From a virus, in the UHGV virus genome UHGV-2201310: 38,499 bases of DNA. One strand, 5' to 3'. The notes under the pieces are model-generated. The model saw only the letters and a program-made list of their open reading frames with translations, did no database searches and was not told the origin of the DNA. Every line of letters starts with the position of its first letter. Position 1 is the first letter of the stretch. The position numbers and the translations under genes were made by a program. This document shows, one piece after another, positions 19,270-23,310 of this stretch.

Positions 19270-19729
19270 TCAACGTAAGGCGTTCCTCGATATGCTGGCG
19301 TGGTCAGAGGGAACTGATAACGGACGACAGAAAACCAGAAATCATGGTTATGACGTCATTGTAGGTGGTGAGCTATTCACTGATTACTCCGATCACCCCC
19401 GCAAACTTGTCACGCTAAACCCCAAACTCAAATCAACAGCTGCCGGACGCTACCAGCTTCTTTCCCGTTGGTGGGATGCCTACCGTAAGCAGCTTGGCCT
19501 GAAAGACTTCTCTCCCAAAAGCCAGGACGCTGTTGCGCTGCAGCAGATTAAGGAGCGTGGCGCTTTGCCGATGATTGATCGCGGTGATATCCGTCAGGCA
19601 ATCGACCGTTGCAGCAATATCTGGGCTTCACTGCCTGGCGCTGGTTATGGTCAGTTCGAGCATAAGGCTGACAACCTGATTGCAAAATTCAAAGAAGCAG
19701 GCGGAGCGGTCAGAGAGATTGAGGTATGA
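19253..19729 (+). CDS. R: endolysin R (lytic transglycosylase)
   Basis: 158 aa, lambda R-like ([24 protein letters not shown]...). Confidence 0.9.
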
Positions 19730-20163
19730 GCAGAGTAACCGCGATTATCTCCGCTCTGGTTATCTGCATCATCGTTTGCCTGTCATGGGCTGTTAATCAT
19801 TACCGTGATAACGCCATTACCTACAAAACCCAGCGCGATAAAGCCACGTACATCATCGCTGACATGCAGAAGCGTCAACGTGATGTAGCAGAACTCGACG
19901 CCAGATACACAAAGGAGCTTGCTGATGCTAACGCGACTATCGAAAGTCTCCGTGCTGATGTTTCTGCTGGTCGTAAGCGCCTGCAAGTCGCCGCCACCTG
20001 TGCAAAGTCAACGACCGGAGCCAGCAGCATGGGCGATGGAGAAAGCCCAGGACTTACAGCAGATGCTGAACTCAATTATTACCGTCTCCGAAGTGGGATC
20101 GACAGGATAACCGCGCAGGTTAACTACCTGCAGGAGTACATCAGGACGCAATGCCTTCGATGA
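19726..20163 (+). CDS. Rz: i-spanin Rz
   Basis: 145 aa; N-terminal TM + coiled coil, lambda Rz-like N-terminus. Confidence 0.85.
19919..20110 (+). CDS. Rz1: o-spanin Rz1 (embedded lipoprotein)
   Basis: +1 frame ORF inside Rz with lipobox LVVSAC and Pro-rich mature region. Confidence 0.7.
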
Positions 20164-20338
20164 TAGCGATAATTTTACTCATCATCCTTCACATCTGGCT
20201 CTGTAGACAGGGTGGTGATCACTTCTGGAGTGAATCCAGATTAAACATCTCATTGCTGATGCTTGATATTGAGCATCTGGCGCGCAGTAAGGGGCTGCGT
20301 TGAGATAAGAGCCAGTCATCACAAACACCAGGATTTAG

Positions 20339-20361
20339 CCTCGCATTCGCGGGGTTTTTTA
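20339..20361 (+). terminator. rho-independent terminator after lysis cassette
   Basis: Hairpin CCTCGC-ATTC-GCGGGG followed by TTTTTT. Confidence 0.45.
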
Positions 20362-20384
20362 TTCCCAACTCCATAGGTAATTTT

Positions 20385-20864
20385 ATGACCCAGCATATTG
20401 GCGTAAAACTGATTAACGCCTTTCCGATGACGAGACAGGCATATAACGATTTTCGTGGCTGGCAGCTTCCTGCCGGAGAAAACGGCGAGGACGAAGGCTA
20501 TCTGGTTGAATATCTGGATGGCGGAAAACCTAACACCGATCGCTTTGATGGCTACGTTAGCTGGAGTCCAAAAGAAGTATTCGAAAAGGCTTATCGTCCG
20601 GTATCAGGACTAAGTTTCGGCCTTGCCATGGAAGCGTTAAAACAGGGCAAAAGTTTGCAGCGGGCAGGATGGAATGGGAAAGACCAGTTTGTTTATCTCG
20701 TGAAAGGGGAAAAATTAGCGTCTGCGTTGGGTTATGGCTTTGGCGAATATGTTGGCGAGCCAACTTTCAATGACACGCTTGTATTGAAAAACTCACAGAA
20801 CCGCCTTGCTACATGGGTTCCATCCATTGGCGACCTGATGGCTGAAGACTGGCAAATCATTTAA
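20385..20864 (+). CDS. hypothetical moron protein (C-terminal half possibly DUF2829-like)
   Basis: 159 aa cytoplasmic protein; C-terminal SFGLAMEALKQGKSLQRAGWNGK...W.P...DL.AEDW pattern recalls DUF2829-type small domains (unverified). Confidence 0.55.
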   Translation: MTQHIGVKLINAFPMTRQAYNDFRGWQLPAGENGEDEGYLVEYLDGGKPNTDRFDGYVSWSPKEVFEKAYRPVSGLSFGLAMEALKQGKSLQRAGWNGKDQFVYLVKGEKLASALGYGFGEYVGEPTFNDTLVLKNSQNRLATWVPSIGDLMAEDWQII

Positions 20865-21167
20865 CCATGTAGGCATTACAAAGCCTATCTACGGGTGGGC
20901 TTGATAATGAAACCGGAGTTAATTTCTGGTCACTAATTAACGGCAGTACAGCGAAACAACCCAAGCCAGTAAGTGGGGAAATAACACTGGCAGCCACTGA
21001 AAGATGAACCTCCTGCCTTATGGCAAAAAAGATTCTTTGTGGTGGCGGACTGATGGAAAGACATCGGTTATTGCAGAGACCATTCAATGAGTGGTCTCGA
21101 CAATGGCTTATACCCTACACGGGATAACTTAACTGATATCCCTTTTAACGGATAAACGGAGCCAACA

Positions 21168-21410
21168 ATGGCAGAGATTATTCCCATGACTGAAGAACAG
21201 AAATTCCAGTTAGAGATTTACAAACTGGTCATGAACCAGAACGCAGCCGCAGAAGAAGCATTTCAATTCATCGGCACTGACGAACTGAAGCTTGAGCTAT
21301 TCAAAATTCACTTCCAGTCAGGCGGCGCTAATTCAGATATCACGACCCGCACTATCGAAGCGGTGCGTAAATCGAAGGAAGCGTTAGACCTGTTCACTAC
21401 CGGAGCATAA
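21168..21410 (+). CDS. hypothetical protein upstream of terminase
   Basis: 80 aa ORF with ACGGAG RBS. Confidence 0.5.
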   Translation: MAEIIPMTEEQKFQLEIYKLVMNQNAAAEEAFQFIGTDELKLELFKIHFQSGGANSDITTRTIEAVRKSKEALDLFTTGA

Positions 21411-21412
21411 AC

Positions 21413-21850
21413 ATGGCGCGCCCAACAAAGTATCAAGAGGCGTACGCCGAACAGGCACGCAAACTGTGCTTGCTGGGCTACACCGATGCAGAGCTTGCTG
21501 ATTTCTTCGAAGTCAGTGAGTCAACTATTAACAAGTGGAAGCTTGATTATCCTGAGTTTTCGGAGTCCATAAAAAAGGGTAAGGCCGTCGCTGATGCAGA
21601 AGTTAGTGATCGTCTTTATCAACGCGCTATGGGCTTCGTGGCTCCAGACATCGATATTCGTGTTATTGAAAACAGAATTGTCGAAACTCCGCTTGAGAAG
21701 TATTACCCGCCTGATACAACCGCCGCCATCTTCTGGCTTAAGAACCGACAGAAGGATAAATGGCGCGACAAGCAAGAAGTTGAACACACCGGAGAGGTTA
21801 ACCTGATTCAGCGCATTCAGGAGGCCAGAAAACGCGCGAGAGGTGAGTAA
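21413..21850 (+). CDS. terminase small subunit
   Basis: 145 aa with N-terminal HTH-like segment, immediately upstream of and coupled to large terminase. Confidence 0.65.
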   Translation: MARPTKYQEAYAEQARKLCLLGYTDAELADFFEVSESTINKWKLDYPEFSESIKKGKAVADAEVSDRLYQRAMGFVAPDIDIRVIENRIVETPLEKYYPPDTTAAIFWLKNRQKDKWRDKQEVEHTGEVNLIQRIQEARKRARGE

Positions 21851-23310
21851 TGTCGTCAGAATTCGAGGCAATGCTTGCCGATGATATGGGGCGATTCTTT
21901 TACGATCCGCTTGGCTTCGTTATGTATGCGTTTGATTGGGGAACTGGTGAGCTTGAGGGCTTTGACGGGCCCGATGAATGGCAGAAAGAGTTTCTGACAG
22001 ATTGGGGAGACGCAATCAGGACTAATAACTTCGACGGTGTTAAACCTGTTGAAGCCTATCGTTGCGCTACCAGCTCTGGTCACGGTATCGGTAAAAGTGC
22101 TCTAACTGCCTGGGTCATTCTGTACATCCTCAGCACTCGTCCTTTCTGCAAGGGCGTCGTGACAGCCAATACCTCTGAACAGCTTCGCACCAAAACATGG
22201 GGCGAGCTGGGCAAGTGGAAGAAGCGGTGCATCACTGGTCACTGGTTTGAGTACAACAACGGCAAAGGCAACATGAACATCTACCATGTGGATCACATGG
22301 AATCATGGCGCTGTGACGGCCAGACGTGTCGGGAAGAGAACAGCGAGTCATTTGCTGGCCTGCATGCAGCTAACTCAAGCCCGTTCTACATCTTCGATGA
22401 AGCCTCAGCGGTTCCTGACAAAATTTGGGAAGTAGCAGAGGGCGGCCTTACTGACGGCGAGCCTTTCTGGTTTGCATTTGGGAACCCGACCCGTAACACC
22501 GGTCGATTCCGAGAGTGCTTCCGCAAGTTCAAACACCGATGGCGTCGACGTCAAATTGATAGCCGCCTGGCAAAGATGACCAACAAAGAGCTCATTGAAG
22601 AGTGGCGCAAGGATTACGGTGAAGACAGCGACTTCTTTAAAGTACGTGTTCGCGGTCTATTCCCATCGACATCAGAAGTCCAGTTCATACCTCAGGCATA
22701 TGTGGATGAGGCCATGTCTCGCACGCTTGAGCCCGGGTCTTACACATTCGCATCCAAAATAATCGGCGTTGACCCTGCTTACACAGGTAGTGATGAGGCA
22801 TCAATTTACCTTCGCCAGGGTCTTCATGCGCGCCTGCTTGGCACCTACCCGAAAACAGATGACGACGTTAAGTTCGCGCAAATCGTCGCAGGATTTGAGG
22901 ATGAGCATAAGGCAGATGCAGTGTTCATAGACTTCGGGTATGGCACCGGAATTCACTCAATAGGTAGGTCGTGGGGAAGGAAGTGGCAGCTGGTTAACTT
23001 TGGGGGTGAATCCAAAGACCCCGGCATGCTGAACAAGCGCGGTGAGATGTGGAACTCAATGAAGTCATGGCTCAAAGAAGGGGGAAGTATCGATGATCAG
23101 CAAACAGCTGACGAAATCGTTGCTCCTGAGTACAGGGTTAAGCTCGATGGGCGCATCGTCCTTGAGGCCAAAGAGGACATGAAGCGCCGTGGGGTTCCTT
23201 CACCAAACCGCGCTGATGCGTTAGCCCTGACGTTTGCATTCCCGGTAGTCAAAAACAAACCAACTAAGCCATTACCGGCTCCAATTCGTCCAATTTCCAG
23301 AGGTAGATAA
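21850..23310 (+). CDS. terminase large subunit
   Basis: 486 aa; Walker A-like SSGHGIGKS, nuclease-domain acidic residues; position before portal. Confidence 0.85.

What the first reader, a model, noticed from the sequence alone, without database searches (positions are those of the whole stretch)
20385..20864. Moron gene after the lysis cassette: possible DUF2829-like candidate anti-defence protein
A 159-aa cytoplasmic protein is set between terminator-like hairpins in the Rz-to-terminase gap, a classic moron slot. Its C-terminal half carries a pattern I associate, from memory only, with DUF2829-type domains, a family reported to include nucleotide-signal sponges against Thoeris. The N-terminal half is acidic and unassigned.
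Basis: inference. Interest (0 to 1): 0.5.

Follow-up and report, generated by a model that had tools for sequence, protein, structure and literature searches.

The report
Tad2-type immune-signal sponge with companion domain
This prophage gene encodes a member of the known Tad2 family, phage proteins that soak up bacterial immune alarm molecules, joined to a very conserved small domain of unknown function that turns up next to at least six unrelated sponge families.

Summary
The ORF at 20385-20864 (+, 159 aa) is real. It lies between Rz and DUF2560/terminase in a P22-like E. coli phage that is 99.5% identical to phage HZ41 over this region.

PGAP already annotates the gene as "DUF2829 domain-containing", so this part is a new member of a known kind.

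The N-terminal 74 residues are the more interesting part:
- They form a small beta domain with no Pfam model.
- They are more conserved than the Tad2 half.
- They have 1,566 representative relatives.
- At least 104 of the top 150 relatives are fused to Tad2, Sequestin, Acb4, Tad1 or RyR-Tad sponges. Lockin fusions appear in a published table.
- They are homologous to the "unknown fold" N-domain of RyR Tad gp68, a strand-swapped dimer that was inactive alone against type I Thoeris.

The function of this domain is open.

The parts
20337..20362 (+). Intrinsic-terminator-like hairpin (GCCUCGCAUUCGCGGGGU followed by a U-run), 23 nt upstream of the start codon
   Evidence: Terminator scan. RNA fold, (the stem is present in both the MFE and the centroid structure).
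20375..20378 (+). AGGT Shine-Dalgarno-like motif, 6 nt before the ATG
   Evidence: Read directly from the sequence.
20385..20864 (+). Coding sequence, 159 aa plus stop: a two-domain protein (companion domain plus Tad2 domain)
   Evidence: phrog_872 over the full length, E=1.9e-69; 2,928 homologues; 45 of 5,426 complete E. coli genomes, annotated as 'DUF2829 domain-containing protein'.
20385..20606 (+). N-terminal 'sponge-companion' domain, aa 1-74. A small beta-rich SH3/Tudor-like domain (b-b-a-b-b-a) with no Pfam model, homologous to the N-domain of RyR Tad gp68
20607..20861 (+). C-terminal Tad2 (PF11195, formerly DUF2829) domain, aa 75-159
   Evidence: 48.8% identity to SPO1 Tad2, no gaps.
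20670..20675 (+). Codons for W96-N97, equivalent to SPO1 Tad2 W25-N26 (ligand stacking and phosphate contacts)
   Evidence: Gapless alignment. Residue roles from bioRxiv 10.1101/2023.05.01.538930. W96 is invariant and N97 is at least 90% conserved in 83 homologues.
20814..20834 (+). Codons for W144...S147...D150, equivalent to SPO1 W73, S76 and D79. G149 replaces the adenine-contacting T78
20625..20834 (+). Swapped Tad2 core cassette. DNA identity to the phage Huey and Kapi1 alleles is 16-73% here, against 93-100% in the first 240 nt and the last 30 nt
   Evidence: 30-nt window identity profile of the three alleles. Protein sequences.

Best explanation
The gene encodes a cytoplasmic two-domain phage counter-defence protein.

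C-terminal half. Residues 75-159 are a Tad2-family domain. By homology it should assemble into a homotetramer whose inter-protomer pockets bind and sequester ADP-ribose-derived alarm molecules made by bacterial TIR (Thoeris ThsB) enzymes. The Thoeris effector would then never be switched on. The most likely ligand is 3'cADPR (1''-3' gcADPR), because the domain aligns to SPO1 Tad2 without a single gap. The short SPO1-type beta2-beta3 insertion argues against a second cyclic-dinucleotide pocket.

N-terminal half. Residues 1-74 are a separate, highly conserved beta domain of the family seen at the N-terminus of RyR Tad gp68. There it forms a strand-swapped dimer. Here it most likely provides extra dimer contacts, and it possibly has a further, still unknown function.

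Expression. The gene sits in the Q-dependent late operon, has no promoter of its own, and would be made together with the lysis and virion proteins.

Shown here: the ORF, family membership by HMM and fold, pocket-residue conservation, the domain architecture and its distribution. Inferred: oligomeric state, ligand, timing and biological effect.
For: Family and fold:
- PF11195 at 78.3 bits against a cut-off of 25.
- SPO1 Tad2 at E=3e-26, gapless, 48.8% identity.

Pocket. SPO1 ligand residues W25, N26, W73, S76 and D79 map to W96, N97, W144, S147 and D150. All are invariant or at least 90% conserved in 83 homologues.

Published function. Tad2 sponge function and tetramer pockets are documented. 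Cyclic-dinucleotide binding needs the long insertion that SPO1 Tad2 and this protein lack.

Fusions. Sponge fusions are functional: Acb4-Tad2 of phage Pm86 and Acb4-Sequestin.

N-domain. It is homologous to gp68_N, whose crystal structure is a beta1-swapped dimer and which is dispensable for gp68's anti-Thoeris activity.

Late-operon context. No promoter-like site on the + strand.
Against: - No binding or infection experiment exists for this protein or for any N+Tad2 protein.
- The adenine-side and water-coordinating residues differ from SPO1 Tad2 (I63L, T65N, D67Q, H71A, T78G). The 'SIGD' motif resembles Tad2_68 more than SPO1. The ligand could therefore be His-ADPR, N7-cADPR or something else.
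- Tad2 specificity is highly plastic, and several of the 18 tested homologues inhibited none of seven systems. These include the only long (158 aa) one, which has an unrelated N-extension.
- Sponges are usually early genes (discussion quoted), whereas this gene is in the late operon.
- The oligomeric state could not be modelled here.
Confidence: 0.75

Rival explanations
1. Bifunctional inhibitor. The N-terminal domain is itself an autonomous anti-defence module. It could be a sponge for a signal not yet tested, or a binder of a host immune protein. One polypeptide would then neutralise two pathways, as Acb4-Tad2 and Acb4-Sequestin fusions do.
For: - The domain has 1,566 representative homologues.
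- At least 104 of the top 150 are fused to Tad2, Sequestin, Acb4, Tad1 or RyR-Tad domains, in N-terminal, C-terminal or internal position. Lockin fusions appear in a published table.
- The same guilt-by-fusion logic led to the discovery of Sequestin.
- It is more conserved than the attached Tad2 domain (69% against 53% mean pairwise identity). 60 pairs have at least 93% identical N-domains with at most 50% identical Tad2 domains, and none show the reverse.
- Its nearly invariant residues are rich in aromatics and basic residues (K8, R17, Y20, R24, W26, Y43, Y57, W60, Y70), as in nucleotide pockets.
- gp68_C works without it, so it is not needed for its partner's function.
Against: - gp68_N alone had no activity against type I Thoeris, the only system reported for it.
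- Among close relatives it is almost never free-standing, unlike proven sponges.
Confidence: 0.3
2. Purely structural accessory. The N-domain is only a dimerisation, stability or solubility module. It raises oligomer stability or avidity for whatever sponge it is attached to and has no ligand of its own.
For: - In the RyR Tad crystal structure it is a beta1-swapped dimer that contributes to dimerisation.
- gp68_N alone is inactive.
- All its partners are even-numbered homo-oligomers (dimers, tetramers, hexamers), which is compatible with a dimerising clamp.
- It is rarely free-standing among close relatives.
Against: - Its partners oligomerise and function without it (stand-alone Tad2, Sequestin, Acb4; gp68_C).
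- A mere scaffold would not be expected to be more conserved than the functional domain, or to keep so many invariant polar and aromatic residues.
Confidence: 0.4
3. Anti-CRISPR (AcrIIA7-like), as the automatic annotation of the homologous gene in phage Huey suggests.
For: The Huey homologue is labelled 'anti-CRISPR protein'. AcrIIA7 chains appear among the PDB sequence hits (8kbi E=4e-6, 9kzr E=1.6e-5).
Against: - HgmTad2/AcrIIA7 showed no Cas9 inhibition in vitro or in vivo when re-tested.
- The discoverers of Tad2 concluded that DUF2829 proteins are anti-Thoeris rather than anti-CRISPR.
- E. coli carries type I, not type II, CRISPR-Cas (general knowledge).
- Similarity to AcrIIA7 is limited to the shared first helix and strand (query residues 76-111).
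Confidence: 0.03
4. Host-physiology modulator. The Tad2 domain would bind a housekeeping nucleotide such as c-di-GMP (as HgmTad2 does at pM affinity) to alter motility or biofilm of the host, rather than to block immunity.
For: HgmTad2 and SptTad2 co-purify with c-di-GMP.
Against: c-di-GMP binding needs the long beta2-beta5 insertion. SPO1 Tad2, whose insertion this protein matches without gaps, bound none of the cyclic nucleotides tested. There is no own promoter for lysogenic expression.
Confidence: 0.05

Closest known systems
Tad2 of Bacillus phage SPO1 (Gp34.65; PDB 8SME/8SMF/8SMG, 8WJE)
   Same: PF11195 domain with 48.8% identity over 84 residues and no gaps, including the short GFGEY-x-x-EP insertion. 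The core pocket residues W, N, W, S and D are conserved. The same fold is predicted.
   Different: SPO1 Tad2 is an 89-aa single-domain protein. This protein has an extra 74-aa N-terminal domain. Five secondary pocket residues differ (I63L, T65N, D67Q, H71A, T78G). The host is an enterobacterium rather than Bacillus, and the gene is in the late operon.
MoTad2/ModTad2 (PDB 9EIB), a His-ADPR and cUMP sponge, and HgmTad2/AcrIIA7 (PDB 8KBI), a gcADPR plus cyclic-dinucleotide sponge
   Different: Both have longer insertions after beta2 that create a second pocket. The window protein has the short SPO1-type insertion. The alleles in phages Huey and Kapi1 do have long insertions.
RyR Tad (gp68 of Pectobacterium phage vB_PatP_CB1; bioRxiv 10.64898/2026.06.04.730250)
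   Same: Same N-terminal domain family (34% identity over 67 aa, E=2e-6; shared motifs K..A.PMT, EGYLV.Y and SWSP..VF), followed by a sponge domain. Both are two-domain proteins of about 160-180 aa.
   Different: The C-terminal sponge of gp68 is an all-helical RyR Repeat12-like domain that forms dimers, not a Tad2 tetramer. gp68 lies in the N4-like early anti-signalling hotspot, not in a lambdoid late operon.
Fused multi-sponge proteins: Acb4-Tad2 (Pasteurella phage Pm86), Tad2-Sequestin, Acb4-Sequestin (Ab09 gp59), N4 gp49
   Same: A modular polypeptide that joins a sponge domain to another small phage domain. The N-domain itself is present in N4 gp49 and in many Acb4 and Sequestin fusions.
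   Different: In those proteins both halves are proven sponges. Here the second half has no demonstrated ligand.

Membership tests
Tad2 / PF11195 (formerly DUF2829) sponge family | Significant match to the family HMM above Pfam's gathering threshold | tested here: met
   78.3 bits against a cut-off of 25, E=6.4e-22, profile positions 2-73 of 73.
Tad2 / PF11195 (formerly DUF2829) sponge family | Tad2 fold: N-terminal helix, antiparallel beta-sheet, short C-terminal helix | tested here: met
Tad2 / PF11195 (formerly DUF2829) sponge family | Conserved gcADPR-pocket residues (SPO1 W25, N26, W73, D79, plus S76) | tested here: met
   W96, N97, W144, D150 and S147 by gapless alignment. They are invariant or at least 90% conserved in 83 homologues. 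Secondary residues T78, T65, D67 and H71 are not conserved.
Tad2 / PF11195 (formerly DUF2829) sponge family | Homotetramer with pockets at protomer interfaces | not testable with these tools
   Only monomer prediction was available. This needs AlphaFold-Multimer/AF3 or SEC-MALS.
Tad2 / PF11195 (formerly DUF2829) sponge family | Binds and sequesters a TIR- or CD-NTase-derived signal and inhibits the cognate defence system | not testable with these tools
   This requires biochemistry and plaque assays.
Tad2 / PF11195 (formerly DUF2829) sponge family | Short single-domain protein (about 60-110 aa) | tested here: not met
   The protein is 159 aa with two domains. This is typical of the family rather than defining it, because fusions to other domains are documented and functional.
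Companion domain of RyR Tad gp68 (unnamed; no Pfam model) | Sequence homology to gp68 residues about 1-65 | tested here: met
   BLASTP E=2e-6, 34% identity. Own N-domain HMM against gp68: E=1.6e-8. Foldseek hit to the gp68 homologue of Yersinia phage TG1: E=1.3e-4, TM 0.78.
Companion domain of RyR Tad gp68 (unnamed; no Pfam model) | Five-stranded beta-sheet completed by a swapped beta1 from the partner protomer (dimer) | tested here: inconclusive
   The monomer model has strands 2-5, 9-14, 38-43 and 57-62 plus a short strand at 71-72, which is compatible. Strand swapping cannot be seen in a monomer model.
Fused dual-sponge proteins (Acb4-Tad2 type) | Both fused domains are sponges with their own ligand | tested here: inconclusive
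   The Tad2 half qualifies by homology. The N half has only guilt-by-association evidence and one negative assay in a homologue.
AcrIIA7-type anti-CRISPR | Inhibition of type II-A Cas9 | not tested
   Literature re-tests found no Acr activity for HgmTad2/AcrIIA7. This is not a credible family function.
Moron (autonomous accessory transcription unit) | Presence varies between otherwise syntenic phages at the same slot | tested here: met
   Only 2 of 221 matching phage records cover at least 80% of 20100-21200. The others share the flanks but carry different genes.
Moron (autonomous accessory transcription unit) | Own promoter upstream and terminator downstream | tested here: not met
   No sigma-70-like site on the + strand in 19700-21500. 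The only + strand terminator-like site is upstream of the gene.

The most novel reading that the evidence does not exclude
The 74-residue N-terminal domain is a previously unrecognised, very widespread anti-defence module in its own right. It could be a sponge or enzyme for an immune signal that has not been tested, or a device that protects sponge proteins from host counter-surveillance. Phages would have repeatedly bolted it onto at least six unrelated sponge families (Tad2, Sequestin, Acb4, Tad1, Lockin, RyR Tad). If so, its unassigned fusion partners would also point to further, still unknown sponge families.
Probability: 0.3. Interest if true: 0.7.

Novelty: new member of a known kind. 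Interest (0 to 1): 0.42.

Why it matters
As a Tad2 homologue, the gene adds a temperate P22-like coliphage, and about 0.8% of complete E. coli genomes, to the carriers of anti-Thoeris sponges. It also shows the Tad2 ligand-binding core being swapped as a cassette between nearly identical phages. That is direct evidence of an arms race over signal specificity.

The larger point is the N-terminal domain. It has no Pfam model, so Pfam-based fusion screens such as the one that found Sequestin could not see it. Yet it is one of the most faithful genomic markers of nucleotide sponges. It could serve as a handle for finding new sponge families, and its own function is an open, directly testable question.

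Tried and rejected
1. Degenerate Tad2 repeat. The N half looked like one by eye ('RGW' and 'SWSPKEVFEKAY' against 'RAGWNG' and 'TWVPS..DLMAEDW'). hhalign of the two domain profiles gave probability 0.15% (E=0.39), and the predicted folds differ. Rejected.

2. Database searches with the N domain alone. Pfam at E<=10 gave nothing, and PADLOC on both the N domain and the whole protein gave nothing. NCBIfam on the whole protein gave nothing meaningful. The PHROG hits have unknown function, except phrog_643 'transcriptional regulator' (E=4e-5, on the Tad2 half). I take that label to be a propagated annotation, not evidence.

4. Is the N domain Lockin, Acb5, TadIV-1 or another named sponge? No. Lockin homologues carry the N domain as an extra N-terminal piece. 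TadIV-1 is helical and restricted to Straboviridae.

5. Own promoter for the gene. None was found.

6. Rfam on 20100-21450. No match.

7. Foldseek against afdb50. The library was unavailable.

Full report
**Observation.**
- The ORF listing gives a 159-aa ORF at 20385..20864 (+), starting at the first start codon after a stop. An AGGT motif lies 6 nt upstream.
- The window is a P22-like (Lederbergvirus-type) coliphage or prophage. The 1.1-kb region is 99.5% identical to Escherichia phage HZ41 and partly shared with Huey, Kapi1, IME10, Sf6, CUS-3 and epsilon34.
- Neighbouring genes are Q antiterminator, holin S, endolysin and Rz upstream, and DUF2560, terminase small and large subunits and the P22 portal downstream. 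The 'Rz-to-terminase gap' is therefore correct.
- An 8-bp GC-rich hairpin plus T-run sits at 20337-20362. The downstream hairpins are stable but lack a U-tract. No sigma-70-like promoter is found on the + strand.
- The slot is variable. Only 2 of 221 matching phage records cover at least 80% of the region.

**The C-terminal half is a Tad2 domain.**
- Pfam PF11195 ('Tad2-like', the former DUF2829) matches residues 77-159 at 78.3 bits (cut-off 25, E=6.4e-22).
- Against PDB sequences the best hits are SPO1 Tad2 (Gp34.65; E=3e-26, no gaps), MoTad2 (1.6e-18), SptTad2 and HgmTad2/AcrIIA7. Pairwise identity to SPO1 Tad2 is 48.8% over 84 residues without gaps, and 45% to MoTad2.

**Ligand pocket and likely specificity.**
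- The SPO1 Tad2 structure paper lists W25, W73, N26 and D79 as the main ligand contacts. T78, I63 and T65 lie near the adenine, and D67, H71 and S76 coordinate waters.
- In the gapless alignment these map to W96, W144, N97 and D150 (conserved), S147 (conserved), and G149, L134, N136, Q138 and A142 (changed).
- The conserved five are invariant or at least 90% conserved across 83 homologues.
- The insertion after beta2, which in HgmTad2 and MoTad2 creates a second pocket for cyclic dinucleotides or cUMP, is here the short SPO1 type. SPO1 Tad2 bound no cyclic nucleotide other than gcADPR.
- I therefore commit to a tetrameric sponge for a TIR-made ADP-ribose signal, most probably 3'cADPR. His-ADPR and N7-cADPR are not excluded, because the adenine-side residues differ and Tad2 specificity is known to be plastic.
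- The 'anti-CRISPR' label on the Huey homologue stems from AcrIIA7, whose Acr activity could not be reproduced.

**Cassette exchange of the Tad2 core.**
- The Huey and Kapi1 genes have the same first 80 or so residues but very different Tad2 cores with long insertions.
- At the DNA level, identity is 93-100% over the first 240 nt and the last 30 nt, and 16-73% in between.
- Across 83 homologues, mean pairwise identity is 69% for the N domain against 53% for the Tad2 domain.
- Sixty pairs have at least 93% identical N domains with at most 50% identical Tad2 domains, and none show the reverse.
- The ligand-binding core is being swapped on a constant N-terminal module.

**The N-terminal half.**
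- Residues 1-74 have no Pfam or PADLOC match. They are not a degenerate Tad2 repeat (hhalign probability 0.15%).
- Modelled alone (pLDDT 95.1), they form a small beta-rich domain in the order b-b-a-b-b-a.
- phmmer against 1.84 billion cluster representatives finds 1,566 proteins at E<=1e-3 and 838 at E<=1e-10. The domain lies at N-terminal, C-terminal or internal positions.

**Fusion partners of the N domain.**
- Pfam on the top 150 representatives shows the partners PF11195 Tad2 (52), PF21825 crAss001_48 (38) and PF13876 Phage_gp49_66 (22).
- The literature identifies PF21825 as Sequestin, a 3'cADPR sponge, and PF13876 as Acb4, a CBASS sponge.
- With my own profiles the architectures are N-Tad2 (49), N-Sequestin (24), Acb4-N-Sequestin (9), N-Acb4 (8), Acb4-N (5), N-Tad1 (1) and N-RyR (1), among others.
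- At least 104 of 150 carry a known sponge domain. Many of the remaining 46 look like divergent or truncated Tad2 or Sequestin.
- Distant copies of the domain precede Lockin in the published Lockin homologue table.
- tblastn finds the domain in 137 phage records. These include N4 gp49 itself, N4-like coliphages, and Vibrio, Klebsiella and Pseudomonas phages and crAssphage.

**Link to RyR Tad.**
- A Foldseek hit to a 'Ryanodine receptor Ryr domain-containing protein' of Yersinia phage TG1 led to a June 2026 preprint on RyR Tad, gp68 of Pectobacterium phage CB1.
- I fetched gp68. Its residues 4-63 are homologous to the window's N domain (34% identity, E=2e-6; own HMM E=1.6e-8).
[quoted passage not shown] In the crystal it forms a beta1-swapped dimer. 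gp68_N alone has no anti-type I Thoeris activity, while the RyR half alone is sufficient.
- A 2026 list of sponge families (Tad1, Tad2, Acb2, Acb4, Sequestin, Lockin, TadIV-1) does not include it.

**Interpretation of the N domain.**
- It is at least a dimerising companion module.
- Three facts make a purely structural role unsatisfying: its partners work without it, it is more conserved than they are, and it keeps many invariant aromatic and basic residues.
- The one negative assay and its rarity as a free-standing protein among close relatives argue against a conventional autonomous sponge.
- I rate 'structural accessory only' at about 0.4 and 'own anti-defence function' at about 0.3.

**Expression.**
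- The gene lies in the late operon downstream of Q, behind a terminator-like hairpin that Q-modified polymerase would be expected to read through (established lambdoid biology; inference here). It has no promoter of its own.
- Late synthesis is unusual for sponges. It would, however, coincide with production of virion proteins, one of which (a capsid vertex protein) is implicated in type IV Thoeris sensing.

**Prevalence and novelty.**
- The gene is found in 45 of 5,426 complete E. coli genomes, always chromosomal, and is annotated 'DUF2829 domain-containing protein'. The homologue search found 2,928 proteins.
- The Tad2 assignment is therefore a confirmation, not a discovery: a new, untested member of a known family.
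- Nearly all of the experimentally tested Tad2 proteins whose rows I read were 60-108 aa. The only long one (158 aa, with an unrelated N-extension) was inactive. The N+Tad2 architecture therefore appears not to have been characterised.

Noticed in passing
window 20960-21100 (+), within the 300-nt non-coding gap 20865-21167: A strongly structured RNA region of four consecutive hairpins. MFE is -52.8 kcal/mol against -35.2 for shuffles (z=-5.3, 0 of 200 shuffles as stable). There is no Rfam match. Phages that lack the Tad2 gene still match about half of 20100-21200, but I did not work out which parts they share.
   Followed up: partly
L001 (phage Huey) 2521-2901, same slot as the window gene: Huey carries a second gene of the Acb4 family (PF13876-like sequence, labelled 'anti-CRISPR') directly after its N+Tad2 gene. 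The Rz-to-terminase slot of P22-like phages therefore behaves like a small anti-signalling hotspot. This parallels the hotspot described for N4-like phages.
   Followed up: partly
Representatives P0176, P0198 and P0220: Some N-domain proteins carry C-terminal regions that match none of the known sponge profiles but recur. One example shares the motif 'DYAWGWHCNIAMAAFDAGCPH'. Single cases carry WDGH (PF25311) or DUF7307 domains. These partners are candidate new anti-defence domains by association.
   Followed up: no
window 20151-20303 (+): A 50-aa ORF with a hydrophobic N-terminus overlaps the end of Rz. Similarly placed, slightly shorter ORFs are annotated as hypothetical proteins in Huey and Kapi1, the latter with a predicted signal peptide. 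No family match was found.
   Followed up: no
NC_019501.1 (phage IME10) 17758-17979: The N-domain coding sequence is present at 98.6% identity, but no feature is annotated under it in the RefSeq record. This is probably a missed or disrupted gene.
   Followed up: no
window 21413-21850 and 21850-23310 (+): The presumed small and large terminase subunits, named so in phage Kapi1, gave no Pfam match at E<=1e-3.
   Followed up: no
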